A DNA stretch of 30,470 nt. It comes from Bacteroidota bacterium (GTDB lineage: Bacteria > Bacteroidota > Bacteroidia > J057 > JADKCL01). Of the stretch, positions 3,501-21,648 are shown one piece after another. Location: NCBI GenBank assembly GCA_031375795.1, contig JANMIM010000558.1, positions 1 through 30,470 on the forward strand, written 5' to 3'. Numbering within the stretch: the first letter of the stretch is position 1; each line of letters starts with the position of its first letter. The notes under the pieces were generated by a model, which was not told the origin of the DNA, made no database searches, and saw nothing but the letters and a program-made list of their open reading frames with translations. Position numbers and translations under genes: made by a program.

Positions 3501-5540
3501 ATTGCCTGTGCCTGCATCGCCAAAGCGCCAGTCATGAATCGTGACCGCAGCCGAGTTCCAGTTGTTGGCGATGTGATGGAAGCCAGTGAAGTTGGTGCCA
3601 TTGGGCCAGCATTGGTCGAGCACGGTCACCGAGTCGATTTCGGGCTTGGGCCAGATGCTGATGGACTGGGCCATGGTGTCGCGGCAACCATCGCTGCTCA
3701 CGACGTAGAGGCTGTCGCGGTAGAAGTTGGGCACGGCGTAGGCGTGGGTCGTCACCGAACCAGAACCCGTGGTGGCATCGCCGAAGTGCCAAGTGAAAGT
3801 GGGGATGGTGGCGCCATTCCAATTGTTGGGGATGCCGGTGGTGTTGCTGAAGCTGGCCGCCTGCGGCCAGCAGATGTCGGGGTCCGTGATCGCCGTGATG
3901 TCAGGCTTGGGCCAGACATCGACCGAACCGGCAAGGGTGTCCCTGCAGCCGACGTTGGTGGTCACGAGCAGCGACTCGGTATATTGGTTGGGGACGGCAA
4001 ATGCGTGGCTGCTGTTGCTGCCAAAGCCGTTGTTGCCATCGCCGTAGCGCCATTCGAAGGTCGTGATCGTACTGGTGTTCCAGTTGCTGGGGATCGTCGT
4101 GTTGTTGCTGTACAAGACGGCGTTGGGCCAGCAGATGTCGGTCTCGGTGACGCTGTTGATGGTCGGCTTGGGCCAGACGGCGATCGGCTCGACCAGGGTG
4201 TCTTTGCAGTTTTGGGTCGTGGTCACGATCAAGCGCAGGTTCAGGTTGGCGGCCACACTATAGCTATGTGTCGGCGTGGCGCCTGTACCCGTGGTGGCAT
4301 CGCCAAAGTCCCAAGCATACGTGCTGATCGTCGAGCCATTCAAGCCAACTGTGGCGCTGTAATTGAGCAAAGCGAATTGGCAGCCGTTGTCGGGATTGAG
4401 GGCCGTGACGTCTGGGCGTGGGTTGATGGTGATGTTTTTGGTGGCTTGCACCGAGTCGCAGGCACTGGAAAATGCGACGACCTTGAGGACGTGTACGCCG
4501 CTCGTGAAGCCCGAGGTGTTGATGGACTGCGTCGTTGCCACACCGGAGCTGCGGAAGATGTTGTCCAGGTACCAGCGGTAATTCACGTAGGGGCCAGAGG
4601 CTGTGAAGTTGAGGATGTCCTCTTCGCAGGCCGTGACCGCACCTACGGGTGAGATCGTGACGGGTGTGGTGCGGTTGAATTCCGAACCAAATGCCGTCGT
4701 AGGCTCGGCGGCGGCACGCGGGCGGTACCACACCTGCACTTGGGCGGTATTGGCGACGTTGGCGGTGAGGGGTGCGGTGTTGGGGGGAATGTCGCCTGAG
4801 CCGCTGTTCACGTTTTGGTTCAGGCCCGTGTTTTGGGCGATGTTGAGCAAGGCGGGCGTGAAGAAGCCGGGGTGACCGCCTGCATCCACCGGCAACTCTT
4901 CGACATAAAGGTTGGTACCGATCGAGACTCCGCGGCTCGTGCCCTCGGCTTGCACATACTGCGTGCCCGAGACGTTGTAGGTCGTCTTGGGTCTGAAATT
5001 GCCTACATTCGCGGAGCGCACATCCCAGCGAAAGGTCGTCGCATTCGCCGGAATCGTGTAGTTGGTGAGCTCCCAAGTGGTCGCGGCCGAGAAGCCGACC
5101 GTAGGGGCAGTCGCGACCGTGCCGACCGAGGAGAACGTATTCTGGATGAGCTGGGTGCAGGTCGTCGCATTGTCATAGTACATCACGATCTGCTTGCTGC
5201 CCAAGGCGGGTATGCTCGGGACCTTGACATAATAGACGGCAGCGGCCATCGGGAACAAATTCACATCGCTCTGCCAGTAGTTGAGCTGGGTCACGCAGTC
5301 GCTGTCGTAAAACACGAAGCCAAACCTGTTCGAGAGTTTGGCCGCCCCTTGCAAGGCTGTCGTGTTCACCGTGAATTTCACGACATAATTCGTCAAGGCC
5401 ACCGCATTCGGATTGGTGACCGTGATCGTCTGCAAAAAGGTTGGTTTCACGCACTGCGCCTTCACCAGATTGGGCACGCCCAGCCATCCCATCAGCAAGC
5501 CCAAGAGGCCTAATTTTACTATTTTCATGCTGCTTCGCAT
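528..5540 (-). CDS. T9SS cargo with type B (gliding-motility-associated) CTD: signal peptide, DUF2341-like N-terminal domain, 10 PKD domains, short Ig-like repeats
   Basis: Signal peptide ending VKA-Q. DUF2341-like segment ITVTNPNAVALTNYVVKF...FYDSDCVTQLNYW...YVKVPSIPALGSKQIVMYY. Ten W-x-[FY]-GD PKD motifs counted. C-terminus YQGISPNGDGVNDHF...IFNRWGAEVY...LPDGVYFYVL...KGYVVINR is the type B CTD pattern. The start may be ATG 5528 (MKIVK). Confidence 0.92.
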   Translation of the reverse strand: MRSSMKIVKLGLLGLLMGWLGVPNLVKAQCVKPTFLQTITVTNPNAVALTNYVVKFTVNTTALQGAAKLSNRFGFVFYDSDCVTQLNYWQSDVNLFPMAAAVYYVKVPSIPALGSKQIVMYYDNATTCTQLIQNTFSSVGTVATAPTVGFSAATTWELTNYTIPANATTFRWDVRSANVGNFRPKTTYNVSGTQYVQAEGTSRGVSIGTNLYVEELPVDAGGHPGFFTPALLNIAQNTGLNQNVNSGSGDIPPNTAPLTANVANTAQVQVWYRPRAAAEPTTAFGSEFNRTTPVTISPVGAVTACEEDILNFTASGPYVNYRWYLDNIFRSSGVATTQSINTSGFTSGVHVLKVVAFSSACDSVQATKNITINPRPDVTALNPDNGCQFALLNYSATVGLNGSTISTYAWDFGDATTGTGATPTHSYSVAANLNLRLIVTTTQNCKDTLVEPIAVWPKPTINSVTETDICWPNAVLYSNNTTIPSNWNTSTITTFEWRYGDGNNGFGSNSSHAFAVPNQYTESLLVTTNVGCRDTLAGSVDVWPKPDITAITDPDICWPQAASFSNTTGIPNNWNGATIPTFTWHFGDATTGSGSVTTHAYAVPNFYRDSLYVVSSDGCRDTMAQSISIWPKPEIDSVTVLDQCWPNGTNFTGFHHIANNWNSAAVTIHDWRFGDAGTGNTNPVFHTYALPNVYTHTLFVQTGNACRDTLVDQVNIWPKPSINSITEGDICWPNLVSFTNNTTIPNNWDATTIAQWDWRFGDGQTGIVPTLNHYFAVPNRYFDTLFVRTGDNCRDTLTGSVDVWPKPQIDSIIAADVCEPQTVNFTQATVIPNNWDNATIPTYQWDFGDGNTGTGASTTHNYAIPGAYNVRLIVITSDACRDTLFKNVNVYPKPNAVFSIADICYGDSLFLVSGSSVSNVLGSVITGYLWTFGDGNSSQAMDPSHFYSFDGLYTVTLVTTTNHGCMDTLVQPVNVFPKPNASFSFPRTCQPDAVNFIDASTVSSGTIAGYDWDFGDGGSSAAQNPVYTYATADSYMVELIVTTDNGCLDTLVRTLVWNPKPLANFNFSNVCFPDSIHFMDQSSLAFGNMLRWEWDFGDGGTAMTTNPTHLYATAGTYNVQLIVTSDSLCMDTLVLTATSNEKPTASYSPNTICWPDSVPFLDLSTIGGSAQVTAWQWSFGDGSSSTDQNPMHYYPHPDTFDVSFIAISDSACSDTFLQKFVAFPRPGVQLGPDTLWLCPFNTLTLHAGPQFVNYSWQDGATDSVYVVNTSGTYTVTVVDTNGCIQSDTVESPLAPKPVLSIAPDDTVEFCIGSTVMVDAATLGIQAFLWNNGATSSDITVSTPGTYTVIGWNQYLCSDTADLVAIQNPLPVPDLGADRSICAGDTAVIEAGAFPAYLWSNGVTSQSIPVWYTGAFAVTVTDANGCEGEDEINVTRHELPWVDLGIDSSLCAGDQMVFDAGAGYVSYFWPSNGQTTQSITVNANASVSVIVTDQFGCTNASNVVEVTVDPLPAPAIITKGDQEIELVATPQAYHQWYQDGQLLNGETRPQIVPTASGNYQVMVTDTNGCKMLSGIFHIDLEIYDEEMYQGISPNGDGVNDHFTVPEIEYYPQNQLQIFNRWGAEVYSAEPYLNEFDGHEDNGNSLPDGVYFYVLDLGNGQDPIKGYVVINR
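2874..4178 (-). repeat. Five tandem PKD units with an exact 261-nt (87-aa) period
   Basis: [VI][WY]PKP anchors begin at 4178, 3917, 3656, 3395, 3134 and 2873, each 261 nt apart. Each unit carries an I[PA][NS]NW loop. Confidence 0.9.
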
Positions 5541-5553: not shown

Positions 5554-8500
5554 TCAAAACTTTACAATCCGCACCATTTTCTGGCTCTCATTCACCTGAA
5601 TGTTCACCAGATACACGCCTGCGGCGATCTTATTGTCCAAAACAAAATCCACATGGTAGCGTTGATCCCCAGTGAGTTTACGCTGCGTCACGATCCGGCC
5701 TTGCATATCGATCACCTGGACCTTGGCATCCATGGCTCGCTTCAGGGCAATGTTCACCGCAAAGCTACCCATGTTTGGGTTTGGAAAAACCGCGACATTC
5801 AAAATATCGCCCACGCCGTTCTGGTCTGGCCCTTGATTGTACTTGCCCGAACCATTCACCACCCTGATCGTCTTCACGACGGTGTCGGCGCACCAAGCAT
5901 TGGCGGTGGCCAGGCTCACTTGGTAATAGGAGGTATCGACCAAGGTATCGTTGGCGTAGATGTGCCATGGGTAACTGGTCGAGTCACCCGTGCCGTCCCC
6001 AAAGTCCCAATAGGTCGTGGTGGGCACGGGCGTCGAGAATTCCAAGAAGTAGACGGTATCGCCAGCATTGACGACACTGGCCATGAGGAAGCGTGCTTGC
6101 AAGGCGCTATCGCCCTGATCGACGGTCATGGTGTCGCGGTACACGCAGCCTGCCGAGTCGGTGAGCGCGAGGATGTAATCCCCGGCGGCCACCCCGATGA
6201 GGCTGCTCGTCGTCGCACCATTGTTCCAGGCATAAGTATAGGGCATCGAGCCGCCAAAGGGCGTCACGATGATGGAGCCATCGGCTTGGTCGCGGCAGGT
6301 CACATCGACGATGGTCGATGCAAAGCTCAGGGTCGGCGGCTCGATCACCGTCACGCTGCCGGTCACCGTACAGCCATTGTCATCCGTCACCGTGAGTGCG
6401 TAGCTGCCAGCAGCCAGCGCATTGATGCTGCTCGTGGTGTCGCCGTTGCTCCAACTGAATTGGTAATTGCCAGTACCGCCAGCGACCAAGGCAATGGCAG
6501 CGCCATTGGCATTGCCGCCGCAGTGGACGTCGGTCGCGCTCAGGCTGGCCGTGAGCAAGGTCGGCTCGCCAATCGAGGTGGCAATGCTCGCGGTGCAACC
6601 GAGCGAGTCGGTGACGGCCACGGAGTAATTGCCGGGTGCCAATCCACTCAAGTCCTCGGTGGTCGCGCTGTTGCTCCAGAGGTAGGCGTATGGCAAAGTG
6701 CCACCGGTCGCCGTGAGGTCGATCGTGCCATCGTTGCCACCATTGCAGAGCACGTCGGTGCTGTCGATCGCGAGGCTGATCACACTCGGTTCGCTGATCG
6801 TGGCGCTGTCGATCGTCGCGCATCCACCTTGGTCAGTGACCGTTACGTAATAGGTGCCCGCAATCAATCCGCTCGGATCCTCTGAAATCTGGCCCGAGGA
6901 CCAAACATAGGTGTAGGCTGGCGTGCCACCCGACACGGTCAGGTCGATGCTGCCATCGGTCCCGCCTCCGCAGGAGATATTCACCGCCGTGTTGCTCAGC
7001 ACCAAAGCGGTGGGTTCGATCACGGCAAATGTATCGTTCAAGGTACAGCCATTGCTATCCGTCAAAACCACCGAATACGTTCCAGCGATCAAGGCGCTCA
7101 GGTCTTGGCTCGTCGCGCCATTGCTCCAGAGGTAGGCGTAAGGCAAGATTCCTCCACCGGGAATGAAGTCCACTGCACCGGTCGCGCCGCCAAAGCAGTT
7201 TTCATCCGTCACGATCCCAGCGCTTGTGAGGGCCGTCGGCTCGGTGATCAAATGGCTCAGGAAGGCTTGGCAACCGTCAAATGCGGTCACGGTCAAGTCA
7301 TAAGTTCCGGCGGCAAGGCTCGCAATCGAGAGCGTCGTCGCGCCATTGGTCCAGAGGTAGGTGAATGGCGATACGCCACCAACGAGGCTCACGTTGATGT
7401 CCCCGTCTGCGCCGCCGTTGCAGGAGACATTTGAAGCAGAGTCCAAAGTGACCGTGGGCGCACCCAAGTTGCTCACGGCTGCCGACACGGAGTCGATGCA
7501 GCCGTTGGCGTCGGTGACCAGCACTTTATAGATGCCTGCTGGGATGCCAAAGATCGAATCCAGTGTGCTGCCGACCGTTGGCCAGTTGTAGGTGTACCCG
7601 GGCGTACCGCCAGTGACATGCGCTGCGGCAGAGCCATTGCTCTGCCCGCAGGCGGCGTCCACGGTCGTTGCCGTCACCACGATGGCGCTTGGCTCGGCGA
7701 TGGTCACCGATTGGGTGGCGGTACAGCCGCTGATGTCCGTCACCGTCACGGTGAAACTCCCCGCCCCGATGCCGCTCAGGTCTTCGGTGGTGGCCGCATT
7801 GGACCATTGGTAGGTATAGGCGGGGCTGCCGCCTGTGACGCTCAGGTCGATGCTGCCGGTCGTGCCAGCATTGCAAAGCACATCGACATGGGTCTCGGTG
7901 GCGCTCAGGGTCGTGGGCGGCGTGATCACGTAGCTTGCGATGGTTTGGCAACCGTTGGCGTCGGTGACCGTGATGCCGTAGGTGCCCGCGCCGAGGCCCG
8001 TCACGTCTTGGGTGGTGGCGCCGTTGCTCCAGACATAGCTGTAAGCGGTCGTGCCGCCGCTCACGGAGATGTCGATCTGCCCATTGTTGCCGCTGGAGCA
8101 GCTGATGTTTTGCTGGCTCACGAGGCTGATGCCCAAGATGGCAGGCTCGGTGATGACGCGGCTGTCGGCGAAGTTGCAGCCATTGGTGTCGGTGACCGTC
8201 ACGGAGTAGGTGCCTGGGCCGAGGTTGCTTTGGCTGGATGTCGTGGCACCATTGCTCCACAGGTAGGTGTAGGATGGCGTGCCACCTGTTGCGCTCACGC
8301 CCACGGTGCCGTCTGCGGCGCCGTTGCATGTCACGTTCGTGCGGGCCATCGTGTGGGCGAGCACGCTGGGCTGTGTCACGACTGCGCTCGCATTGGCGAG
8401 GCAGCCGAGGGCATCGGTCACGGTCACGTTGTAGGTGCCGGGGCCGAGGTTGCTGAGATTTTGCGAGGTTGCACTGTTGCTCCAGAGGTAGGTGAATGCG

Positions 8501-10254
8501 GGACTGCCCCCACTCACACTCAAACTCACACTCCCATTTGCGGCGCCGTTGCAGGTGATGTCAGTGGGCGTGGCTGTGGCGCTGATGCTCGGGGCGACGT
8601 TCACCTGTACCGTGTCGGCTGCTTGGCAGCCGTAGGTGTTGGTAACGGTGACCTCATAGGGGCCGGTGACGCCGACGGTGATCGAGGCGACGGATGCGCC
8701 TGTGTTCCAGGCATAGGCCGGGCCGACGTTGCCGGCGTGGCCAGGCAAGGCCGCGTTCAGGAAGGCATTGGTGCCGCCGCAGATGTTGCGGGTGCCGCCG
8801 AGGTTCACGACGGGCGCGGGCGATTTTTCAAAGACAACCGAGTCGCGGTTGGCGCAGCCATTCGCATCGGTGACTTGGACCCAGACGGTGTCGTAGGTCA
8901 CCGTGGTGTCGCTGTGCAGCAGGTTGATGATCTGCGTCGTGGCAGCGGTGCTCCAGAGGAAGGTAGATCCGGCATTGGCGGCATCGAGGGGCTGGGGCAC
9001 ATTGGCGCAGGCGGTGACGGTGTCTTGGCCGAGGGCGAGGTTTACGAAGGGCAGGCCATGGCGCGTGACGATGATCGTATCGCGGTTGATGCAGCCGCGG
9101 TTGTTGGTGATCTCGACCCAGAGCGTGTCGGTGATGTTCACATAAACGGTTTGAGTCGTGGCGCCTGTATTCCAGAGATATGTATAACCCACGCCGCTTC
9201 CTGCATTTAGCAAGACTGAATCACCAGCGCAAAAGCTGGTATCGGCCCCAAGGCTGTCGATTGGAGGATTGGCGCAGTCGAAGTCGGCGATGGTATAACG
9301 CACAGTATCTGACGTGATGCCTTGAATATTCGGCGCGGTGACTTTGGCGAGGTTGGTGTCCACGGTGCTGGTGACAATGTTCCAGGTCGCGCCATCGTCG
9401 GTGGAGCGGAACATGCGCAGATTGCCTTTTTGGCCGTGCCCATTGGTCTCGGTGGTGTCGAGATAGACCGATTGGCCAAAGGCGGCCACGATCGATCCAT
9501 TGCTGTTGCGCACATCGTAATAGCGCTCGATGCTGCCGTCTGCGGCTGTCGCCTGCGAGGAGAAATAGCGCCGCACGAGGACGGAGTCTTGTAGGTTATT
9601 GAAGGTCAATCCCAAACGCGCTGGGCTGCGCAAACTGCTGTTCAGGAACTGCTTTACTTGCAAGTAGCCCGTGCCGCCATAGATCCGATTGATGTCGGTC
9701 TCGCCCACGATCGTGGAGGCCGTGTCCTTGTTGTTGAAAATGATGCTAGCGCTGCCCACATTCAGATCGCCAGTGTTCATTTTCAACTTGTTGAACATGG
9801 TAACTTGGTTGGTGAGATCGACCTTTTGGGTTGCAAGCACCTTGGAGATTTCCAAACTGTAGAAATTGATCTTACCCACGCCGCCCACGAGTTGCGGAAA
9901 GCCTTGGTCGGCCACCACGGCCCCACGCGAGCGCAGCAAGGGATTCAAATCCACGTAGAATGGCAGCTGGGTGAGGTTGTTGTTCAGGAAATTGCCCGTG
10001 AAATACAAAGCAGAGTTGGGCACTTGGTTCAGCTTGCCAGCGCCGGCGTTGTAGATCACATTGCCTTGGGTATAGAGCGTATCGTTGATGCCACTGAGCA
10101 CGATGTCGCCTGCGATGTAGAGATCCACCTGTGAATGCAGAGTGAGTGGGAGCGTGAGAGCGAGTGCGAGGAAAACTCCTCGGAGCCGGGTAACAAGCAG
10201 CCGTATCGTGGGGCGAAGGTATTTCATGGCGATATGTGGGTAGATACCTTTCAA
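5554..10254 (-). CDS. T9SS cargo with type A CTD: N-terminal beta-helix-like region, 3 short Ig-like repeats, 11 SprB-type repeats, 1 PKD
   Basis: Signal peptide ending LHS-Q. Eleven repeats of the form C.G...G.I.L.V.GG..PY.Y.WSNGAT..DL..L.AG.Y.VTVTD..GC. C-terminus VAVFPNPNMGSFAV...VIDMQGRIV...AAGVYLVNIQ...VRIVKF is the type A (Por secretion tail) pattern. The likely start is ATG 10227 (MKYLRP); the track start at 10254 is TTG. Confidence 0.92.
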   Translation of the reverse strand: MKGIYPHIAMKYLRPTIRLLVTRLRGVFLALALTLPLTLHSQVDLYIAGDIVLSGINDTLYTQGNVIYNAGAGKLNQVPNSALYFTGNFLNNNLTQLPFYVDLNPLLRSRGAVVADQGFPQLVGGVGKINFYSLEISKVLATQKVDLTNQVTMFNKLKMNTGDLNVGSASIIFNNKDTASTIVGETDINRIYGGTGYLQVKQFLNSSLRSPARLGLTFNNLQDSVLVRRYFSSQATAADGSIERYYDVRNSNGSIVAAFGQSVYLDTTETNGHGQKGNLRMFRSTDDGATWNIVTSTVDTNLAKVTAPNIQGITSDTVRYTIADFDCANPPIDSLGADTSFCAGDSVLLNAGSGVGYTYLWNTGATTQTVYVNITDTLWVEITNNRGCINRDTIIVTRHGLPFVNLALGQDTVTACANVPQPLDAANAGSTFLWSTAATTQIINLLHSDTTVTYDTVWVQVTDANGCANRDSVVFEKSPAPVVNLGGTRNICGGTNAFLNAALPGHAGNVGPAYAWNTGASVASITVGVTGPYEVTVTNTYGCQAADTVQVNVAPSISATATPTDITCNGAANGSVSLSVSGGSPAFTYLWSNSATSQNLSNLGPGTYNVTVTDALGCLANASAVVTQPSVLAHTMARTNVTCNGAADGTVGVSATGGTPSYTYLWSNGATTSSQSNLGPGTYSVTVTDTNGCNFADSRVITEPAILGISLVSQQNISCSSGNNGQIDISVSGGTTAYSYVWSNGATTQDVTGLGAGTYGITVTDANGCQTIASYVITPPTTLSATETHVDVLCNAGTTGSIDLSVTGGSPAYTYQWSNAATTEDLSGIGAGSFTVTVTDISGCTATQSVTIAEPSAIVVTATTVDAACGQSNGSAAAHVTGGTPGYTYNWPTVGSTLDSIFGIPAGIYKVLVTDANGCIDSVSAAVSNLGAPTVTLDSASNVSCNGGADGDINVSLVGGVSPFTYLWTNGATTLSIASLAAGTYDLTVTAFDGCQAFLSHLITEPTALTSAGIVTDENCFGGATGAVDFIPGGGILPYAYLWSNGATSQDLSALIAGTYSVVLTDSNGCTLNDTFAVIEPTALVLSNTAVNISCGGGTDGSIDLTVSGGTPAYTYVWSSGQISEDPSGLIAGTYYVTVTDQGGCATIDSATISEPSVISLAIDSTDVLCNGGNDGTIDLTATGGTLPYAYLWSNSATTEDLSGLAPGNYSVAVTDSLGCTASIATSIGEPTLLTASLSATDVHCGGNANGAAIALVAGGTGNYQFSWSNGDTTSSINALAAGSYALTVTDDNGCTVTGSVTVIEPPTLSFASTIVDVTCRDQADGSIIVTPFGGSMPYTYAWNNGATTSSLIGVAAGDYILALTDSAGCVYRDTMTVDQGDSALQARFLMASVVNAGDTVYFLEFSTPVPTTTYWDFGDGTGDSTSYPWHIYANDTLVDTSYYQVSLATANAWCADTVVKTIRVVNGSGKYNQGPDQNGVGDILNVAVFPNPNMGSFAVNIALKRAMDAKVQVIDMQGRIVTQRKLTGDQRYHVDFVLDNKIAAGVYLVNIQVNESQKMVRIVKF
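6120..8590 (-). repeat. Array of 11 SprB-type repeats (about 75 aa each, one Cys pair per repeat)
   Basis: Counted in the translation from ISATATPTDITCNG to YRDTMTVDQG; boundaries approximate. Confidence 0.85.
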
Positions 10255-10258: not shown

Positions 10259-11434
10259 TTAGAGCTTGATTATGTAAGCGAGGACGTAGTAGGGCGGGCG
10301 GTTTTCATGCGTTTCGCCGAGGCCCCGGCTATTGGTCGTAAATTGGTGACTGTGCCACCCGTCAGTGACCGTGGATCCATAGCCATTGATGCCACAGCCG
10401 GAGCAGCTTACACTGGACACTGTAATGTTGGTGGAACCCGTGCCTCCACCACCATCATCATACCCAATGCTATGGTCATGCGAGCCATCTGTATCCGTAT
10501 TCCCAGTATGGGTATGCGTGGGCATTTGCGCCGTGGTGAGTGCAATTGAATCCACTCCTCCATTTTTACCGATCGTATTGTATTGAGAAAAATTCTTATC
10601 ACCGTTGGTATAACCGTAGTTGTTGCCATCTCCGTTGGTGAGGCCCACGACGAAGCGGCCACGCAAGTCGGGTGTGCCATTGCGGCCATCGCAGAGCGCC
10701 CAGCCTTCATATTCAGTCCCTGTGACCCCTAAACCACCAGTGAAATTGCCTGAGACAGTGCCTGACCACATAATGATGCCACCTGTGGGCACGACACCTT
10801 CGCCAATGTACTTGGTGGCGGTTACGTTGCCATCTACAAGTACATTGCTATGAAACCGCGCCCTGCTCTTGACATCCAAACCATAGCCTCCAGCGGTGCG
10901 GGTGGCAAGACCGATGCCGACCCAAGTTTGCACGATAATGCTCGAACTATTGGGGGCCACGCTGTCTTGCGTCCAGCTCGCACTGCCAAATGCAGCATTG
11001 CCGACCACCGTGAGCTTGGAGCCTGGATTCACGTTGGCTGCGGTACCAATGCCGACATTGCCGGGCACACCGGAGTAGATGTGCGTTCCCACGACCGGGC
11101 TCGCGCCAGCCACATCCTTGCGGATCCAGTCATGGTCCAGCTCAAACCACTGCCTGGGCGACTGGTGGAAGTAATAATACTTCTGCAAGTCGGTATCGAA
11201 GAAAATGAGGCCGTGGGCAATGTTTTGTGTGCTGTCGAGCACCACGCGGCTTCCCGAACTGATCTTGGGAATGATCAAGCCCTTGTTGTTGCCCGCGCCC
11301 GCCGAGATGTGCAGCATGGCTGAGGGATGGGGCGTGGTGGTGCCGACACCGATTTGGGAATAGACTCCCATATTTACCGTCAAGCATAGGTACAGCAAGA
11401 GAAACGGTGCAATTGAAGATTTGGTGAATTTCAT
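10259..11434 (-). CDS. Exported tail-fibre-like protein: signal peptide, Bacteroidota (V/I)G(I/V)GT fibre region, C-terminal phage tail-collar domain with His-x-His motifs
   Basis: Signal peptide ending VYS-Q. QIGVGTTTPHPSAMLHI...GLIIPKI...GLIFFDTD...YYYF...W. GNVGIGT and VGIGL motifs. Collar pattern VPTGGIIMWSG...GWALCDGRNGTPDLRGRFVVG...GG...L...QMPTHTH...HENRPPYYVLAYIIKL. Confidence 0.85.
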   Translation of the reverse strand: MKFTKSSIAPFLLLYLCLTVNMGVYSQIGVGTTTPHPSAMLHISAGAGNNKGLIIPKISSGSRVVLDSTQNIAHGLIFFDTDLQKYYYFHQSPRQWFELDHDWIRKDVAGASPVVGTHIYSGVPGNVGIGTAANVNPGSKLTVVGNAAFGSASWTQDSVAPNSSSIIVQTWVGIGLATRTAGGYGLDVKSRARFHSNVLVDGNVTATKYIGEGVVPTGGIIMWSGTVSGNFTGGLGVTGTEYEGWALCDGRNGTPDLRGRFVVGLTNGDGNNYGYTNGDKNFSQYNTIGKNGGVDSIALTTAQMPTHTHTGNTDTDGSHDHSIGYDDGGGGTGSTNITVSSVSCSGCGINGYGSTVTDGWHSHQFTTNSRGLGETHENRPPYYVLAYIIKL

Positions 11435-11451: not shown

Positions 11452-13500
11452 TTATTCCGCCACGATAGTCAATGTGATGGGAGCCGACTTGGCAAAATTG
11501 CCAACCTTGTCAAACACCCGAATTTCATAATAATATGTGCTGCCCTTCTTCAAGCCGGTGTCGGTGACTTTGTAATCCTTCACCAGACCTGAAACAGGCA
11601 GAAATTGATCTTTTCCTTCCTTGCGATAGACCATGCAGCCGATCACGTCGTCGCTCTTGGGCAATGTCCAAGTGATCGTGGCGTCGGGCTTGCCTTTGGC
11701 ATGCTTGATCTCGATGTCTTGCGGTACCGCCTTCACCCGCATGGTGGTCACGCTGCCCATGAATGCCTGCGATTTCCCAGAGCGATTGCCTGCATTGTCG
11801 AAAGATTGCACACAGTAATAATAGCTCACACCAGCCTCGATGTTGCGGTCGGCATAAGCTGTGTCTTTGGCGCCCAACGGTCGCTCCATGAGCGGTTTCC
11901 AAATACTGTCTGGACCCGACTCTTTGGTGGAACGGTACACAATATAGCCCGCCAAATCAGACTCCATGCCGGGCAGCCACACGATGCGCAGCGACTCAGC
12001 CTCCTTGCGGATGCTCTTGACGGTCGGCGTTTGCGGTGGCTCCGGGTCGGGCAAGATGGCCATCGCAGGTGCGCTCATCACGCTCTGGTTGTAGCTCGTA
12101 TCGACGGCCTTCACGAAGTACACGAATTGGTTTTTGGCAACCTTGGGCAAGGTGTCGTTGTAGGCAGCGGTGGTGAGGGCGGCCGGGGTGACGAGGATGG
12201 TATCGCCCTGGATCGTCGTCTTGGCCATGCGGTACACAAGGTAGCCAGCCAGGTCCTTTTCCGGATTGGGAAACCACGTGAGCTTGATCACGCCCGTGTC
12301 GGCAACTGCCTTGAGGTTGCGCACTGCGACGGGCGGCTTGATGTCAAAGACTTGGATCGAGCGGCCTTCTGTGCGGTTTTCATTGCCGGCTTTGTCGAGG
12401 GTGCCGATGGCGTAGGTATAGGCGACGCCGACCTCGGGCACGGTTTCCTCATACTTGCGCAGGCTCACGGCGAGCGGCTGCTTGTTGAGCTTGGTGAAGA
12501 CGCTGTCGCTGCCATTGAGGCGGTAGATGTTGAAGCCTTCGACGCCTTTGGCGTTGGGGAGGTCCCAAGTGGCGGTGACTTTGTCGACCGCCACTTGCAG
12601 CTCAAACTTGCTCACTTGCGCGGGCGGCGTCTTGTCGACCGGCGTGAGCTTGACCTCGCTGCTCGCCTCGGTTTCGAAACCAAAGAAGTCCACGCCCTTG
12701 ATCATGCAGGTATAGGTGGTGCCGTTTTGGAGGCTGTCTGCGAAAAAGAGCCATTCGGCAAATTTGGCTTCACCGCCTTTTTGGGGCACTTTGCTCGGCA
12801 GGATGATCTTTCGGTTGAAGCGCTGCCAGCTTCCGCCGCCGATTTTGTAATAGATGTGTGCCCCGGTGAGCCGCGTTTGGTCGGGATTCCAGGAGAAAAA
12901 CAGCTTGCCGTCGCCTTCCTTCGTTCTTAACTCGGTCGGGGCTGGGCCGCGCTGCAATTTGCCTGCTTTCACATAGCCCGATTGGCCGTAGCTGATCTCT
13001 GATCCGCCTGCGACTTCCTTGACCTCGTAGCGGTATTCTTTGCCGGGCTGGGCGCTCTTGTCGTGGTAAATGATGCCGAGGTAATTGGAAAATTCGCGGC
13101 TCTCGACGGCGTTGGTGAGGACCAAGGCGAGGCCGATGCCTTCCAATTTGTCTTTCTCCCGCATGCCGTCGGCGAGTTCCTTGGTGCGCTTGAGACCGGG
13201 ATTTTGGGCAATGGCGGCACTCATGTCGGCTTGGCCGTAAGTGAATGGCGCCGAATTCAACAGCTTCCATTCCCCTGCACCTGCCTCCTGCCGGTAAATA
13301 TTGATCCCGTTTTTGCTCTTGAGATTGGGTTCGGTCCAGCGCACCCACACACCACCGTCGTCGGGCATCGCCAAGACCTTACGCTGCCCATAGCCCGCCT
13401 GTGCCAGCAAAACCAGCAGCACCGCAACCCCAATATGTTTCAAAACGCCATTCATTGTCTTCTTTTCAGACTGCTGCTTTCGAGCAATCGTTTTTCGCAT
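11452..13500 (-). CDS. Exported fibronectin type III repeat protein (about 6 FN3-like domains), no T9SS CTD
   Basis: Repeated PP..P..L......V.L.W ... G[YF].[IV]YR ... Y.D......Y.Y.V...D...N.S patterns. Hydrophobic stretch IGVAVLLVLLAQAGYG-Q. ATG 13500 overlaps the upstream TGA (TGATG); ATG 13455 is the alternative. The track start is 13509. Confidence 0.88.
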   Translation of the reverse strand: MRKTIARKQQSEKKTMNGVLKHIGVAVLLVLLAQAGYGQRKVLAMPDDGGVWVRWTEPNLKSKNGINIYRQEAGAGEWKLLNSAPFTYGQADMSAAIAQNPGLKRTKELADGMREKDKLEGIGLALVLTNAVESREFSNYLGIIYHDKSAQPGKEYRYEVKEVAGGSEISYGQSGYVKAGKLQRGPAPTELRTKEGDGKLFFSWNPDQTRLTGAHIYYKIGGGSWQRFNRKIILPSKVPQKGGEAKFAEWLFFADSLQNGTTYTCMIKGVDFFGFETEASSEVKLTPVDKTPPAQVSKFELQVAVDKVTATWDLPNAKGVEGFNIYRLNGSDSVFTKLNKQPLAVSLRKYEETVPEVGVAYTYAIGTLDKAGNENRTEGRSIQVFDIKPPVAVRNLKAVADTGVIKLTWFPNPEKDLAGYLVYRMAKTTIQGDTILVTPAALTTAAYNDTLPKVAKNQFVYFVKAVDTSYNQSVMSAPAMAILPDPEPPQTPTVKSIRKEAESLRIVWLPGMESDLAGYIVYRSTKESGPDSIWKPLMERPLGAKDTAYADRNIEAGVSYYYCVQSFDNAGNRSGKSQAFMGSVTTMRVKAVPQDIEIKHAKGKPDATITWTLPKSDDVIGCMVYRKEGKDQFLPVSGLVKDYKVTDTGLKKGSTYYYEIRVFDKVGNFAKSAPITLTIVAE

Positions 13501-16500
13501 CAATAACATCTGTCTGGATCCTCAGGGAAGCTCACCGAGCCATTCTTGACCTCGACCCCGACCGTGAGACCGATTCCGGAGCCCAAAATGCTCACTTCAC
13601 CATGAAGCTTGCCAGCCATGCACAAGTTGTCGTTGATCTTGAAGCTGAGTTCGCCGCTTACATTGACTGAGGCAAATTCATAGCTGTCGGTCACGCCCAG
13701 GGCTGTGACATCCACCCCGGCCGAGGCACCTGCGTCTGCTGAGATCGAGCCAAAGATTGCGGGATCATCAAAAGAGAGCCCGATTTCGGCGGCCACATCG
13801 AGGTGCGCCTTGGCCCAAAAATCGATCGAGCCGATACCTGCATCAAAGCCCCCACTGGTCTCCGCATGCTTGTTGATCTCGCCATGGGCCAGCAAGCCCG
13901 AGGGCCGCGCCTTGATGTAGCCACTGCTGCTCAAGGCACTGATGCAACCCAGCTCCACCTCCAGTGGATTGTTTCGGGTGCCGACATCGATGGCCCAATC
14001 ACTGCGAGAGAAAAAGCCGTCGATCTTGCCCTTGGCGCAGATGGGCTTGATCGTGCCGAAATCGGTCTTCACCGACCCCGACTCTCCCTCTAGGTGAAAC
14101 TCCATTTTCTTCTGCTGCGGATAGATCTCCATTCCCCCAAAACCACGTGCGAGGTAGGAGGAATTCGGATCCAAGCGATACGTGAAGAACCAGCCGTTGC
14201 CGTCCATCGCGATCTTGCTCACGGCGCCGCTGTTTTGCACTTCCACCCGCAAGCCTGCCATGAACATCCATTGGTACATGTTTTCAGGCAAGCCGGGGAT
14301 GCTCGGAATCGGAGGAAGATTGGGCATCGGCGGCAGGTTGTAATTGGGCAACTTGATCTTGCAGAGCGCCAAGTCATCGACCAATTTGAGGTCGCAGATG
14401 CTCGGGATGTCGATGTTGAGGCCGATGCTGCATAGCTTTTTGCTGGAGCCATCGGGCATCTTGAGCTCCATGTCGCAGATATTGGGGAGGCTCGGGAGCA
14501 GCTTGCGCCAGTTGATGTTGCACAACGGCGGCTCCTGCCCATTCAGCGGATTTTTCAGGTCGCAATACTTGAAGCTGATGTTACACAACTTGCGGTTGGA
14601 ATTGGGCCACTTCAAGTCGCAGAAGTTGAAATTGGGCCAGTCGATGTCGAAGATGCTCATCTGGCAGAACTTCTTGCCCGAGATCGGCTCCTCGAGGTCG
14701 CAGAAATTGGGGATGAGGTCGCAAGGCTTCTCGTCGGTGAGCGGGAAGCGCAGGTCGCAAAACTTGAAGTTCACGTTGCAGAGCGACTGCCCATTGACCT
14801 TCCAATCGCAGACATTCGCATTCGGCCAATCGACTTCCCACCACTTGACCTCGCAAAGCGGCACCTGCTGAATAGCGCCATTGCGCATCACGGGCACGAT
14901 GATGTCGCACCAGTTGGCGGTGATGGCGCAGAGCTTGGTCCCATTGGGCAAGCGAAAGTCGCAGGGATTGGGCACGTCGGGGAAAATGTCGGGCCAGCTC
15001 CAATCGCAGAAGACGGAGTGACCGCCAGCCTGGCTCACGAATTGGCAGAGGTCGACTTTGGGGATGATGTCGCCGACGCTGAAGTTGCAGAGGGGCTTGA
15101 TGCCGGGAAATTTCCATTCGCAAACCGGTGGCAGCGTGGGCATGAGGTTGCACAGCTTCTTGTTGCACAGGGGGCCGTTGGCATCCTTGATGTCGCAAAA
15201 CTTGCCGCCGATGTCAAAAAATTCGCAGATGCCCGAGCCGTTGGGCAGCTTGAGGTCGCAGATATTGATCTCCGAGAATCCCAATTCGCCGAGCGTGTAG
15301 TCGCCCAGTTTCTTGCCGCTGGCAAGGCGCAAGTCGCAAAACTGCAACTGTGGCCAATTCACCTTGAAGAGATCGACATCGCACCAGCTTTTGGTTTTGA
15401 TGGCGCCATTGTCCAAGTAGGGCACGTGGATGTCGCAAAGGCTCAGGCCTTCCCATGGCCACCGAATGTAGGAACAGACGCTCTTGCCCTTGTATTGCAG
15501 GTCGCAAAGACCGGGAATGTTGGGCATGATGTCGCCGATGCTCGGCAGGCCCTCGGTGATCTTGATCGGGCCGCTTTTTTGTTTTTTGCCGCTCGGCGTG
15601 TCGTGCAGGCCGAGCTTGCCATACATGCCGAGTGCCACGCCGGGTGTCACGACCAATCCGTCGATGCAATTCACGCCATTGGCGGCGGCATTCAGGTTCC
15701 AGAAGTCATTGAATTGGTTGGGCTTGGCAAATGCCATGCCGGTTGGCGCTGCCAAATTGTGGTAGGCCTGAAAGTCAAAGCCATTGAGCGAAAATGCCGG
15801 GTAGGATTCGATCACTTTGTTGAGGCCCTGAGCGGCGCAACGCAGGTACCAGAATTTAGTCCCGTTGTTTTGAGAGATCACCACACGGGCCGTGGCTACA
15901 ATCGGATCGGGCTGCTTCACCATGATATTGCCCTTGGCCTCAAACCGGGTTCCAAACACAGGGTCATCGTCGATGTAATCTGCAAACACATCCATGTCCA
16001 CGAGGCTATTGCTCATCACGAGCTTGATCGGCCCGATCCTGAACTTGGCTGATTTGGCCTTGCCATCCACGCGTGTATAGACGATGTTGGGGGCGGCGGC
16101 ACCGCCTGTACCCGCCACAGAAACCTTTATGGGCGCGCCCGGGCAGGTGATGCCACCCGGCAGACTCACTTGCGTGAACATCGTGAAGCCGTAAACGCCG
16201 TTTTCATAAAAGGCACCCACCGCATCGGCCACGCCGCTCATTCCGCCGAGGCTCACAGGCACTTGTGTCGCCAGATCACGCTTGCCATTGGGCTCATTGA
16301 AACCGATCTCGTTGTTGCCCCAGACCTTGAGACCAGGGGCATGATCGAGCTTCACCTGCATTTTGGGCCACTCCAAGTCCACATTCATCTTGATGTGGTC
16401 GCCACCTTCAAACACCGCTTGATTGATGTCGAGCTTCACCTTGCTCAAGGTGTCGAGCGGATTGTAGGTCTTGGAAAATGCCTTGAGCGAGTCCTCATTG

Positions 16501-20946: not shown

Positions 20947-21648
20947 CTAGCGCTTCCTCGCTTGTATCCACGCGAGGACTTCCTCTCTCGCAGACCTGGT
21001 CACGACGATGTCCATGCCATCGACCGTGACGGTATGGGCGTTCACGGCATCGACGTGCTTGAGTTGCACGATTGCGCTGCGATGCACGCGCAAGAAGCCG
21101 GGAGGAAGCTTTTCCTCCCATGCATGTAGGCTCTCGCGCACAATGAGGGGCGGGGCGCCCTTGCGATGCAGCTCGACATAGACGCGGTCGGCCTGGAGCA
21201 ATGTGATCTCGCCGTAAATGACTTTTTTGAGCTGCGTGCCGACCTTCACAAAAGTATGGTCGCCCAAGGGATTGGGCGCTGCATTGGCCAGCGCGACCTC
21301 GATGCCCGCATGAATGTCACTCGGCTTGAATGGCTTGACCAAAAACCCGGCGGGATGGGCGTCGGTGGCCCGCTGGATCGTGCCGCTGTCGGAATGGGAG
21401 GTGAGGAAAAGGTAAGGAATGCCGTACCGCGCCTGAATCTCGTGGGCCAATGCGATGCCATCCATGCCCTGCCCCAAGGTGATATCAAGCAGCGCCAAGT
21501 CAGCCCCGCCATCCGCCAAGATCTGTAGCGCCTCCTCGGCATCAAAGGCATGGCCCGCGACCGCATAACCCAAGCCGCTGAGGATCTGCATCAGGTTTTG
21601 GGCAATGATAAACTCATCCTCTACGATCAAGATGCGCTTGCTGCTCAT
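20947..21648 (-). CDS. LytTR-family response regulator (REC + LytTR)
   Basis: ILIVEDE, DLALLDI (phospho-Asp), FLTS and FLVKPF receiver motifs. C-terminal FLRVHRSAIV LytTR motif. ATGA overlap with the kinase stop. Confidence 0.95.
   Translation of the reverse strand: MSSKRILIVEDEFIIAQNLMQILSGLGYAVAGHAFDAEEALQILADGGADLALLDITLGQGMDGIALAHEIQARYGIPYLFLTSHSDSGTIQRATDAHPAGFLVKPFKPSDIHAGIEVALANAAPNPLGDHTFVKVGTQLKKVIYGEITLLQADRVYVELHRKGAPPLIVRESLHAWEEKLPPGFLRVHRSAIVQLKHVDAVNAHTVTVDGMDIVVTRSAREEVLAWIQARKR

What the first reader, a model, noticed from the sequence alone, without database searches (positions are those of the whole stretch)
10259..11434. Phage tail-collar/His-x-His needle module on a Sec-exported cellular protein, with no phage genes around it
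Seen: signal peptide plus GIGT-type fibre region fused to a tail-collar domain. Three HxH motifs (HTH 10508-10516, HDH 10472-10480, HSH 10346-10354) flank a roughly 40-aa Gly/Ser-rich loop containing CSGC. Established: in T4 gp12/gp37, HxH motifs from three chains coordinate Zn/Fe along the receptor-binding tip. Virion tail fibres are assembled in the cytoplasm and lack signal peptides. Inference: a domesticated phage receptor-binding tip used as the specificity subunit of the adhesin, with the CxxC loop as the variable binding end.
Basis: partly seen in the sequence, partly recalled or inferred. Interest (0 to 1): 0.75.

Follow-up and report, generated by a model that had tools for sequence, protein, structure and literature searches.

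The report
Exported phage-fibre-like trimer in adhesin operon
This gene encodes an exported three-chain fibre built like the receptor-binding tip of a phage tail fibre. It is a fast-changing cassette inside a conserved Bacteroidota surface-protein operon, so it is probably the part that decides what the apparatus sticks to; this has not been tested.

Summary
ORF 10259-11434 (-) encodes 391 aa with a Sec signal peptide, a GIGT-type shaft and a tip with three HxH motifs around a 39-aa Gly/Ser loop containing CSGC. No phage gene lies within 30 kb.

Main evidence:
- **Homology.** A family profile matches solved phage fibre tips (9qgo 1.5e-27, C24/6OV6 1.6e-21, T4 gp12 8e-11, gp37 7e-7). H307/H309 align with the gp12 metal ligands His445/His447.
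- **Trimer.** Residues 100-391 score 0.85 as a homotrimer, against 0.00 for the best control.
- **Export signal.** Gln at +1 occurs in 100 of 102 homologues (the Bacteroidetes Q-rule). None has a T9SS C-terminal domain.
- **N-terminal handle.** It is Pfam PTL_trimer and was not found in phage collections. The tip has at least 550 relatives on viral contigs.
- **Variability.** The handle is conserved. The tip loop is hypervariable and is exchanged between lineages. A near relative with 83-93% identical flanking genes carries two different fibre genes.
- **Operon.** The order is barrel, giant protein, FN3 protein, fibre(s), T9SS-A cargo, T9SS-B cargo, PorP/SprF. It recurs in other genomes.

Surface exposure, the docking partner and the ligand are untested. 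CxxC is not conserved. The scan has noted this operon type before on other DNA. The closest precedent is the Bdellovibrio MAT fibres. I class it as a new variant of a known kind, of moderate interest.

The parts
10259..11434 (-). Fibre gene (P0001, 391 aa plus stop)
   Evidence: ORF and translation. More than 2,300 homologues, mostly Bacteroidota.
11357..11434 (-). Sec/SPase I signal peptide, residues 1-26, predicted cleavage VYS|Q27
   Evidence: Read from the sequence. Q at +1 in 100/102 homologues and A/S/G at -1 in 98/102. Q-rule: PMC5837995.
11120..11356 (-). N-terminal 'handle', residues 27-105 (Pfam PF26696 PTL_trimer)
   Evidence: Precomputed Pfam on P0001 and on an N-terminal-only fragment. 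Atlas name 'Phage tail like trimerisation region'. Residues 52-100 resemble N-terminal trimer domains of tailspikes and Mtd, Z 4-5. Mean pairwise identity of residues 27-150 among orthologues is 77%.
10790..11119 (-). GIGT-type fibre shaft, residues 106-215
   Evidence: The profile matches the shafts of Bdellovibrio MAT fibres (8ond 1.7e-6, 8ol4) and of a Photorhabdus eCIS fibre (8on5). It lies in the predicted trimer interface.
10262..10789 (-). Collar/tip domain, residues 216-391 (gp12/gp37/C24 type)
   Evidence: PHROG tail-fibre families 2e-25. PDB profile hits 9qgo, 6ov6, 9nxk, gp12 and gp37. VIA-align: 6ov6 Z 6.8 (rmsd 5.0 A, 141 aligned), 1ocy Z 5.8 (3.5 A, 76), 2xgf Z 5.3 (2.2 A, 60).
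10508..10516 (-). HxH#1 (H307-T-H309)
   Evidence: Present in 99-100 of 102 homologues. Aligns with gp12 His445/His447, which coordinate the axial metal (PMC3004832).
10472..10480 (-). HxH#2 (H319-D-H321)
   Evidence: Present in 96-97 of 102 homologues. Lies in the predicted trimer interface.
10355..10471 (-). Hypervariable tip loop, residues 322-360 (18 of 39 are Gly/Ser)
   Evidence: Entropy 2.55 bits against 0.55 for the handle. Tip identity does not track shaft identity (rho 0.02). Most of it (residues 324-354) is outside the confident trimer interface, and residues 333-343 have pLDDT below 50.
10394..10405 (-). CSGC, residues 344-347
   Evidence: Not conserved as CxxC. Two Cys occur in the loop in 16 of 23 orthologues.
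10346..10354 (-). HxH#3 (H361-S-H363)
   Evidence: Present in 85-88 of 102 homologues. Aligns with the HSH of C24 and the HNH of 9qgo. Lost in one tip type, including the copy on own-genome contig C613.
11452..13509 (-). FN3-array protein (685 aa, signal peptide), the constant upstream neighbour
   Evidence: Pfam fn3. Found directly upstream of the fibre gene.
13500..18908 (-). Giant secreted protein (1802 aa), in the position of a TANFOR protein
   Evidence: No Pfam or NCBIfam hit, and TIGR02542 is not detected. A published TANFOR locus has the same gene order.
18912..20582 (-). Outer-membrane barrel (556 aa), first gene of the operon
   Evidence: AF2 pLDDT 85.7, about 26 strands. Foldseek top hits are MtrB and the FimD/PapC ushers. 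76-93% identical in relatives whose fibre is 57-63% identical.
5554..10254 (-). SprB-repeat protein with type A T9SS C-terminal domain (1566 aa), immediately downstream
   Evidence: Pfam SprB 3.7e-116 and Por_Secre_tail 3.2e-14. An Ig-repeat T9SS-A cargo follows the fibre gene.
528..5540 (-). PKD-repeat protein with type B T9SS C-terminal domain (1670 aa)
   Evidence: Pfam PKD_4 and CHU_C; TIGR04131.
3..512 (-). PorP/SprF-family gene, cut off by the window edge
   Evidence: PF11751, 8.9e-39.
20947..23996 (-). LytTR response regulator (20947-21648) and TPR/HisKA_2 histidine kinase (21645-23996), upstream of the operon
   Evidence: A LytTR regulator also precedes the operon in L003 and L004. LytTR regulators flank seven fibre genes in L006.

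Best explanation
P0001 is a cellular protein built like a phage receptor-binding protein.

**Shown or strongly supported in silico**
- It carries a Sec/SPase I signal peptide that obeys the Bacteroidetes Q-rule.
- It is made of three modules, all phage-fibre-like: a conserved N-terminal PTL_trimer handle, a GIGT beta-helical shaft, and a gp12/gp37/C24-type tip.
- It is predicted to form an intertwined homotrimer.
- Its conserved HxH motifs lie in the trimer interface, and the first aligns with the axial metal site of gp12.
- It is a fast-evolving, copy-number-variable, recombining cassette in an otherwise conserved seven-gene envelope operon. The operon order is: large OM barrel, giant protein, FN3 protein, fibre (one to three copies), T9SS-A Ig-repeat cargo, T9SS-B PKD cargo, PorP/SprF. 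A LytTR two-component system lies upstream.

**Inferred**
- After export the chains trimerise. Fe or Zn ions held by six His (two from each chain) staple the tip.
- The conserved handle docks on a conserved partner of the apparatus or on an envelope component.
- The hypervariable loop between HxH#2 and HxH#3, which usually holds two Cys, forms the distal ligand-binding face.
- The fibre would then set what the surface apparatus binds, probably a glycan or LPS on other cells or on particles. Swapping tips would retarget it, as in phage host-range modules and Bdellovibrio MAT fibres.

How the protein would cross the outer membrane is unknown.
For: - **Domain homology.** PHROG tail-fibre families reach 2e-25. 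The family profile matches PDB entries 9qgo 1.5e-27, 6ov6 1.6e-21, 9nxk 1.6e-17, gp12 8e-11 and gp37 tip 7e-7. H307/H309 align with gp12 H445/H447, the metal ligands (PMC3004832; HxH iron sites in PMC6116203).
- **Fold.** VIA-align gives 6ov6 Z 6.8 (rmsd 5.0 A, 141 aligned), 1ocy Z 5.8 (3.5 A, 76) and 2xgf Z 5.3 (2.2 A, 60). The handle resembles tailspike and Mtd N-terminal domains at Z 4-5.
- **Trimer.** ipSAE is 0.85 against 0.00 for the best of 3 controls. The tool's mark was reached by 20 of 30 solved one-chain pairs and by 1 of 23 single chains. These counts hold only roughly, because my own alignment was used and the job differed from the calibration. The interface includes residues 299-321 and 358-390.
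- **Export signal.** Conserved in 100/102 homologues, with no C-terminal extension. SignalP scored a family member 0.93 in Jana et al., Supplemental Data 1.
- **Handle versus tip.** Handle identity averages 77% and tip identity 30%. Entropy is 0.55 against 2.55 bits.
- **Mosaic quartet.** By shaft, P0005 pairs with P0006 and P0019 with P0022. By tip, P0005 pairs with P0019 and P0006 with P0022.
- **Rapid turnover.** Relative L008 has flanking genes 83-93% identical, but carries two fibre genes that are only 61-63% identical to P0001.
- **Synteny.** Seen.
- **Not viral.** The handle is absent from 50,697 phage records at E<=1 and was not found in IMG/VR. At least 550 viral contigs encode relatives of the tip.
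Against: - There is no experimental data of any kind, and no RNA runs were found.
- No T9SS C-terminal domain and no lipobox are present, so no known route leads to the surface.
- In L006, seven family members sit beside LytTR regulators with no T9SS cargo nearby. The family therefore does not strictly need this apparatus.
- The tip loop is modelled with low confidence.
- The trimer pass could reflect the model's memory of solved fibre tips.
- Pfam Collar is not significant for this protein.
Confidence: 0.6

Rival explanations
1. A periplasmic protein that never reaches the surface. It would be a trimeric lectin-like factor that binds peptidoglycan, a periplasmic glycan or the T9SS cargo during assembly.
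For: It has only a Sec signal. None of 102 homologues has a T9SS C-terminal domain, and there is no lipobox. No export route for such proteins is known in Bacteroidota.
Against: A hypervariable, recombining tip that turns over between close relatives is hard to reconcile with a conserved periplasmic ligand. The analogous Bdellovibrio MAT fibres also carry only a signal peptide, and their authors showed them to be surface-located (PMC10769870). The operon starts with a large plugless barrel resembling MtrB and ushers.
Confidence: 0.18
2. The targeting module of a TANFOR-type interbacterial antagonism system. The fibre would recognise target cells for the neighbouring giant protein, as a tailocin fibre does, rather than serving general adhesion.
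For: The gene order barrel, giant, FN3, collar matches a bona fide TANFOR locus in Jana et al. 2020, Supplemental Data 1. TANFOR neighbourhoods are enriched in SprB, Fn3, PKD and T9SS C-terminal domains (PMC7073777). The same barrel family sits beside a giant protein with a weak hit to an ADP-ribosyltransferase domain in Parachryseolinea. Fast tip turnover fits an arms race.
Against: The 1802-aa giant here has no TIGR02542 hit even at E<=10, and no recognisable toxin domain or immunity gene. Its length is conserved among orthologues (1797-1802 aa), which does not suggest a polymorphic C-terminus. The Collar domain was not significantly enriched in TANFOR neighbourhoods in that study (p = 0.21).
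Confidence: 0.15
3. A freely released, stand-alone binding protein under quorum- or stress-type LytTR control. Examples would be a receptor-blocking decoy against phages or a bacteriocin-like agent. The operon linkage would then be incidental.
For: L006 has seven family genes, each beside HisKA_2/LytTR regulators, with no T9SS cargo. A LytTR regulator precedes this operon too.
Against: The fibre gene is packed within 4-17 nt of its neighbours. It keeps the same position between the FN3 gene and the T9SS-A cargo gene in distant genomes. The strongly conserved handle implies a fixed docking partner. No lytic or toxic domain is present.
Confidence: 0.07
4. A genuine phage, prophage, tailocin or eCIS tail fibre gene, or a remnant of one.
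For: The tip has 23 relatives in GenBank phages and at least 550 on IMG/VR contigs at 31-43% identity. Some sources name family members 'tail fiber protein'.
Against: There are no capsid, tail, baseplate or integrase genes in the 30-kb window. Synteny within a T9SS operon is fixed across genomes. The signal peptide is conserved in 100/102. The N-terminal 190 aa have no match in 50,697 phage records at E<=1, and none of the 80 best viral ORFs has the handle motif.
Confidence: 0.02

Closest known systems
Phage receptor-binding fibre tips with HxH metal sites: T4 gp12 short tail fibre (1OCY/5IV5), T4 gp37 needle tip (2XGF), Bizionia argentinensis prophage C24 (6OV6; Pellizza et al. 2020, J Struct Biol 212:107595), tail fibre 9QGO, Pseudomonas phage Pa223 fibre 9NXK
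   Same: The C-terminal domain (residues 216-391) is homologous, with profile E-values from 1.5e-27 to 7e-7. The core motifs are shared (GWxxCDG, PDLRGRF, HENRPPYY-L-YI). HxH#1 aligns with gp12 His445/His447. A trimer is predicted. The variable region lies between conserved HxH staples.
   Different: This protein is not part of a virion or prophage and carries a conserved Sec signal peptide. It is joined to a handle that was not found in phage collections. Pfam Collar itself is not significant. Metal binding is untested.
Bdellovibrio bacteriovorus MAT (mosaic adhesive trimer) fibres (Caulton et al. 2024, PMC10769870)
   Same: Both are cellular, signal-peptide-bearing, trimeric phage-like fibres. 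Both have a conserved domain directly after the signal peptide and interchangeable tips ('tip swapping'). Relatives of the present family also come in S74-chaperone and non-S74 versions (L011 and L012). The shaft region gives profile hits to MAT structures (8ond 1.7e-6).
   Different: The phylum and the N-terminal domain differ, and no similarity was detected outside the shaft. This protein is much shorter (391 aa against roughly 600-1,100). It is embedded in a T9SS/giant-protein operon. It uses a gp12-type HxH tip. Surface location and function have not been shown.
TANFOR gene neighbourhoods of Bacteroidetes (Jana, Salomon & Bosis 2020, PMC7073777)
   Same: The operon combines SprB-repeat, Fn3, PKD and T9SS C-terminal-domain genes around a giant Sec-exported protein. 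One TANFOR locus in their Supplemental Data 1 has the same order: TANFOR, FN3 (666 aa), Collar protein (314 aa, SignalP Sec/SPI 0.93).
   Different: The giant protein here is not recognised by TIGR02542 and shows no toxin or immunity pair. The paper does not discuss the collar protein, and that domain was not significantly enriched there.
PilV-tail-collar fusion in a conjugative-pilus shufflon (Milman et al. 2023, PMC9881135)
   Same: This is another case where a phage tail-collar domain is proposed to have been repurposed as the specificity tip of a cellular surface appendage.
   Different: That case diversifies by programmed inversion. No inverted or direct repeat touches the tip-coding region here. 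Diversity here arises between lineages by recombination and by gain or loss of genes.
Small 'MdpB / microcystin-dependent protein' tail-collar triads (COG4675, PF07484)
   Same: JGI labels family members 'microcystin-dependent protein'. The collar core motifs are shared.
   Different: Those proteins are about 180-190 aa and match Pfam Collar strongly. This genome has such a triad elsewhere, on contig C1294, scoring 89-95 bits. P0001 scores only 6.7 bits for Collar and carries the signal peptide, handle and shaft.

Membership tests
gp12/gp37/C24-type phage fibre tip (Pfam Collar PF07484 / Gp10_C PF21939) | Pfam HMM match above the gathering score | tested here: inconclusive
   Collar: E 9.6, 6.7 bits against a cut-off of 24. 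Gp10_C: 25.4 bits for the full length and 27.4 bits for residues 200-391, against a cut-off of 27.
gp12/gp37/C24-type phage fibre tip (Pfam Collar PF07484 / Gp10_C PF21939) | Sequence-profile homology to solved tips | tested here: met
   9qgo 1.5e-27, 6ov6 1.6e-21, 9nxk 1.6e-17, gp12 8.2e-11, gp37 6.9e-7. PHROG tail families 2e-25.
gp12/gp37/C24-type phage fibre tip (Pfam Collar PF07484 / Gp10_C PF21939) | HxH motif at the position of the axial metal ligands | tested here: met
   H307/H309 align with gp12 H445/H447 (ligands per PMC3004832). Conserved in 99-100 of 102 homologues.
gp12/gp37/C24-type phage fibre tip (Pfam Collar PF07484 / Gp10_C PF21939) | Intertwined homotrimer | tested here: met
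   Prediction only: ipSAE 0.85 against 0.00 for the best control. The mark was reached by 20/30 solved pairs and 1/23 single chains, and the counts hold only roughly here.
gp12/gp37/C24-type phage fibre tip (Pfam Collar PF07484 / Gp10_C PF21939) | Bound Fe or Zn on the threefold axis | not testable with these tools
   Needs ICP-MS or a structure.
gp12/gp37/C24-type phage fibre tip (Pfam Collar PF07484 / Gp10_C PF21939) | Encoded in a phage, prophage or tailocin structural module | tested here: not met
   No phage genes in 30 kb. Fixed position in a T9SS operon.
Pfam PF26696 PTL_trimer (phage tail like trimerisation region) | HMM match to the N-terminal region | tested here: met
   The precomputed Pfam annotation lists PF26696 for P0001 itself and for an N-terminal-only fragment, P0121. 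Atlas clusters score 0.92-0.94. The local Pfam copy gave no PF26696 hit for residues 1-210 even at E<=10, so the model may be missing from that copy.
Bdellovibrio MAT fibre family | Signal peptide, conserved post-signal domain, trimeric fibre and swappable tips | tested here: met
   Architecture as described in PMC10769870.
Bdellovibrio MAT fibre family | Homology of the N-terminal anchoring domain | tested here: not met
   Profile hits to MAT structures cover only the shaft (profile positions 104-173). The handle gives no hit.
Bdellovibrio MAT fibre family | Surface localisation and a role in cell-cell recognition | not testable with these tools
   Needs experiments.
T9SS cargo | Type A or type B C-terminal sorting domain | tested here: not met
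   No Por_Secre_tail or CHU_C hit. The protein ends with the collar motif, and the longest C-terminal extension in 102 homologues is 2 aa.
Bacteroidota Sec/SPase I substrates (Q-rule) | Positively charged n-region, hydrophobic core, small residues at -3/-1, Gln at +1 | tested here: met
   K2/K5, a hydrophobic core, V24-Y-S26|Q27. Family statistics. Rule per PMC5837995 and PMC10653852. Actual cleavage is untested.
TANFOR-type operon (Jana et al. 2020) | TANFOR domain (TIGR02542) at the N-terminus of the giant protein | tested here: not met
   No NCBIfam hit at E<=10. The only hit in the own genome is sub-threshold and lies on another contig, C103.
TANFOR-type operon (Jana et al. 2020) | Neighbourhood of SprB, Fn3, PKD and T9SS C-terminal-domain genes | tested here: met
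   Enrichment table in PMC7073777. Same gene order in their Supplemental Data 1.

The most novel reading that the evidence does not exclude
The fibre is the exchangeable target-recognition module of a previously undescribed Bacteroidota cell-surface machine. In that machine, a dedicated MtrB/usher-like barrel would thread or anchor the giant protein and the fibre through the outer membrane, independently of T9SS C-terminal domains. Tip cassettes, borrowed from the same pool as phage receptor-binding proteins, would determine which neighbouring cells or particles are engaged. This would amount to a phage-style host-range system working for a bacterium, possibly in contact-dependent antagonism.
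Probability: 0.2. Interest if true: 0.8.

Novelty: new variant of a known kind. Interest (0 to 1): 0.55.

Why it matters
If the fibre is the specificity element, these widespread but uncharacterised Bacteroidota operons would have a readable 'address label'. The operons contain a giant protein, T9SS adhesins and a barrel. Tip sequences could then be used to predict and re-engineer what the cells bind.

It would also extend to a second phylum the principle seen in Bdellovibrio, that bacteria keep phage-type receptor-binding fibres for their own surface.

It raises a concrete secretion question. How does a folded trimer with only a Sec signal cross the Bacteroidota outer membrane? The operon's own 26-strand barrel is a testable candidate.

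Finally, it links the unexplained gene neighbourhoods reported for TANFOR proteins to a candidate targeting component.

Tried and rejected
- **Pfam and NCBIfam.** Pfam Collar (PF07484) is not significant for P0001. NCBIfam gives nothing.
- **TANFOR.** The TIGR02542 HMM does not detect the 1802-aa neighbour, so I do not file the operon as a TANFOR member.
- **Programmed diversification (DGR or shufflon).** No direct or inverted repeat touches the tip-coding region within 5-14 kb. Only the SprB repeats of the neighbouring gene were found.
- **Prophage remnant.** Rejected; see the rival explanations.
- **Repeated exchange of tips with phages.** A tree of 102 cellular and 80 viral tips needs 10 label changes, against 59 for shuffled labels. 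Well-supported branches force only 1 change, so neither a single origin nor repeated exchange is shown.
- **N-terminal handle in IMG/VR.** The broad alignment had no stretch conserved enough to search with. The narrower search found nothing. That search was pattern-based, so absence is not proven.
- **Taxonomic range.** With P0001 as query at E<=1e-10, 5 of 300 sampled genomes of the phylum had a match. In only one of them did the match include the tip.
- **Expression.** No RNA runs hold the locus. The source is a freshwater sediment metagenome.
- **Literature.** Searches for 'PTL', 'tail collar' plus T9SS, and 'microcystin-dependent protein' found no functional study of this family.
Full report
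**1. Observation**

The ORF at 10259-11434 on the minus strand encodes 391 aa.
- HTH is residues 307-309 (10508-10516).
- HDH is residues 319-321 (10472-10480).
- HSH is residues 361-363 (10346-10354).
- The stretch between the second and third motif is 39 aa, 18 of them Gly or Ser, and holds CSGC at residues 344-347.

Three HxH motifs compare with about 0.5 expected from the His content. The N-terminus has Lys2/Lys5, a hydrophobic core and V24-Y-S26|Q27.

The rest of the window holds no phage gene. On the same strand, with gaps of 17 nt or less, lie:
- a PorP/SprF gene (3-512);
- a PKD-repeat protein with a type B T9SS C-terminal domain (528-5540);
- a SprB-repeat protein with a type A C-terminal domain (5554-10254);
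- the fibre gene;
- an FN3-array protein (11452-13509);
- an 1802-aa protein without known domains (13500-18908);
- a 556-aa protein (18912-20582).

Upstream are a LytTR response regulator and a TPR/HisKA_2 kinase. Beyond 24 kb lies a low-GC type III restriction-modification system.

**2. What the protein is**

*Tip.* Locally, Pfam recognises only Gp10_C, near its threshold, and Collar is not significant. PHROGs places residues 212-391 in tail-fibre families (2e-25). A profile of 102 homologues matches solved phage fibre tips:
- 9qgo, 1.5e-27;
- the Bizionia prophage protein C24 (6OV6), 1.6e-21;
- the Pa223 fibre, 1.6e-17;
- T4 gp12, 8e-11;
- the T4 gp37 needle tip, 7e-7.

In the gp12 alignment the family's first HxH falls exactly on His445/His447. 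These residues hold the metal on the threefold axis of gp12 (PMC3004832). Equivalent HxH iron sites occur in gp37 and in pyocin fibres (PMC6116203).

*Fold.* An AlphaFold2 monomer (pLDDT 77) matches by VIA-align 6OV6 (Z 6.8, rmsd 5.0 A, 141 aligned), gp12 (Z 5.8, 3.5 A, 76) and gp37 (Z 5.3, 2.2 A, 60). Residues 52-100 resemble the small N-terminal trimer domains of tailspikes and of Mtd (Z 4-5). At these values the fold matches only corroborate the sequence-profile result.

*Trimer.* Three copies of residues 100-391 gave ipSAE 0.85, against 0.00 for the best of three controls. In the tool's calibration the mark was reached by 20 of 30 solved one-chain pairs and by 1 of 23 single chains. These counts hold only roughly here, because my own alignment was used. 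The confident interface runs through the shaft and through residues 299-321 and 358-390, so it includes all three HxH motifs. Most of the tip loop (residues 324-354) is left out of it. Solved relatives exist, so this pass shows likeness to trimeric tips rather than independent proof.

*Handle.* Precomputed annotations assign PF26696 'PTL_trimer' to P0001. They also assign it to a fragment that contains only the N-terminal half. The ESM Atlas names the family 'Phage tail like trimerisation region', commonest in Bacteroidota. The same signal-peptide-plus-handle module heads other Bacteroidota proteins whose C-termini are Peptidase_S74 chaperone fibres or unknown domains.

*Export signal.* In 102 homologues, Gln occupies +1 in 100 and A/S/G occupies -1 in 98. 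All have a hydrophobic core, and none extends more than 2 aa past the collar motif. This is the Bacteroidetes Q-rule for signal peptidase I substrates (PMC5837995, PMC10653852). It also rules out a T9SS sorting domain.

**3. It is cellular, and it is the fast-moving part of a conserved operon**

*Synteny.* The same seven-gene order recurs around orthologues that are 57-63% identical. Distant versions keep the order FN3, fibre, Ig-repeat T9SS-A cargo: Fulvivirga, a MAG with three tandem fibre genes, and a further case.

*Different rates within the operon.* Against locus L003 the barrel, giant, FN3, SprB-repeat and PKD proteins are 73-76% identical, but the fibre is 57%. Against the close relative L008 they are 83-93% identical. 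L008 carries two tandem fibre genes, and the better match is only 61-63% identical. A second operon copy on contig C613 of the same assembly has flanking genes 72% identical, a fibre 55% identical and a tip type that lacks the third HxH.

*Variation within the protein.* The handle is conserved (mean pairwise identity 77%, entropy 0.55 bits). The loop between HxH#2 and HxH#3 is as variable as the signal peptide (identity 30%, entropy 2.55 bits).

*Tip swapping.* Shaft identity and tip identity are uncorrelated (rho 0.02). In a clean quartet, P0005 pairs with P0006 and P0019 with P0022 by shaft. By tip, P0005 pairs with P0019 and P0006 with P0022.

*Cysteines.* The CxxC motif is not conserved. 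Two Cys in the loop occur in 16 of 23 orthologues, which fits an oxidising compartment.

*No local diversification device.* No repeat that could drive inversion or retro-homing touches the tip-coding region.

*Relation to phages.* The tip has 23 relatives in GenBank phages and at least 550 on IMG/VR contigs, all covering only residues from about 186 onwards. The N-terminal 190 aa match nothing in 50,697 phage records at E<=1. None of the 80 best viral ORFs carries the handle motif. A pattern search of IMG/VR with the handle found nothing. A tip tree clusters cellular and viral sequences strongly (10 label changes against 59 for shuffled labels). It does not resolve whether the tip was captured once or several times.

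**4. Mechanism**

*Shown in silico.* The protein is an exported, trimeric, phage-RBP-like fibre. It has a conserved handle, metal-site motifs on the axis and a recombining hypervariable distal loop. It is fixed in an envelope operon.

*Inferred.* Metal ions staple the tip. The handle docks on a conserved partner. The loop binds the ligand, so the fibre sets the binding specificity of the apparatus.

*The weak point is topology.* The protein has no C-terminal sorting domain and no lipobox. The first gene of the operon folds into a plugless barrel of about 26 strands (pLDDT 85.7). Its best Foldseek matches are MtrB and the FimD/PapC ushers, barrels that hold or pass proteins. This is a lead, not evidence.

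*Family members outside this operon.* Some occur alone beside LytTR regulators (L006), so the fibre may bind a general envelope component rather than an operon-specific one.

**5. Comparison with what is known**

- **Phage fibre tips.** The tip is homologous to gp12/gp37/C24-type tips, but the protein is not a virion component.
- **Bdellovibrio MAT fibres.** The architecture parallels these fibres, which have a signal peptide, a conserved post-signal domain, a trimeric fibre and swappable tips with S74 and non-S74 versions. Their authors showed them to be located on the predator surface (PMC10769870). Only the shaft shows sequence similarity.
- **TANFOR neighbourhoods.** The operon matches the published enrichment for SprB, Fn3, PKD and C-terminal-domain genes (PMC7073777). 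One TANFOR locus in that paper's supplement has the same order and includes a 314-aa collar protein scored Sec/SPI 0.93. The paper does not discuss that protein. The giant protein here is not detected by TIGR02542.
- **PilV-collar fusion.** This is another proposed repurposing of the domain (PMC9881135).
- **Earlier notes of this scan.** Notes e1-4705434 and e1-4705437 describe the same operon type and head-swapping fibre paralogues in another genome. I re-derived the equivalent facts here independently.

**6. Verdict**

The domain families are catalogued, and a functional precedent exists in another phylum. My searches found no functional study of this Bacteroidota family or of its place in the operon. 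I therefore class it as a new variant of a known kind, of moderate interest (0.55). Localisation and partner experiments would be decisive.

Noticed in passing
window 24000-30470: GC drops to 0.38-0.44, against 0.50-0.64 in the rest of the window. The block carries a type III restriction-modification pair (res 25187-28156, mod 28162-30213) and a 181-aa ORF. It is either a horizontally acquired island or a chimeric join in a MAG contig.
   Followed up: no
window 18912-20582 (-): The first operon gene folds as a plugless outer-membrane barrel of about 26 strands (AF2 pLDDT 85.7). Foldseek top hits are MtrB (1.3e-9) and the FimD/PapC ushers. The family has no Pfam model and at least 645 homologues. 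In Parachryseolinea silvisoli it sits beside a giant protein with a weak hit to an ADP-ribosyltransferase domain, with no fibre gene called in the stretch shown.
   Followed up: partly
L008:8622-11086 (MAG Bacteroidota bacterium, JANORP010000104.1): A close relative whose flanking operon genes are 83-93% identical carries two tandem fibre genes (404 and 417 aa) with other tip types, where this window has one.
   Followed up: yes
own genome, contig C613 (L002:1-3517): A second copy of the FN3, fibre and SprB-repeat segment. The flanking genes are 72% identical and the fibre 55%, with a tip type lacking the third HxH. It may be a true paralogous operon or a related strain binned into the MAG.
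   Followed up: partly
L006:5337-19212 (ENA metagenome contig, 474 kb): Seven PTL_trimer fibre genes within 14 kb, each next to a LytTR regulator or a HisKA_2/LytTR pair, with no T9SS cargo nearby. This suggests the family can work without the giant-protein apparatus and is under signal-dependent control.
   Followed up: no
L012:2205-5659 (genome G089, another class of the phylum): Two adjacent signal-peptide proteins share a different N-terminal module. One ends in a collar tip and the other in a Peptidase_S74 chaperone. They lie downstream of a Reg_prop/Y_Y_Y kinase and a LuxR regulator. This is a second 'one handle, two tips' arrangement.
   Followed up: partly
own genome, contigs C1294, C1191 and C182: Classic small tail-collar genes that match Pfam Collar strongly, including a tandem triad of open frames of 179-193 aa on C1294. 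This is a separate family from the fibre studied here.
   Followed up: no
window 13500-18908 (-) and own-genome contig C103:6078-6440: The 1802-aa giant protein is not detected by the TANFOR model TIGR02542. The only hit in this genome is sub-threshold (34 bits) and lies in an 1838-aa frame on another contig.
   Followed up: no
window 10227-10254 (-): The mechanical start of the downstream SprB-repeat gene is a TTG at 10254. The C613 copy begins at the Met equivalent to residue 10 (MKY...), so the true start is probably the ATG at 10227. That would give a 31-nt gap after the fibre gene.
   Followed up: partly
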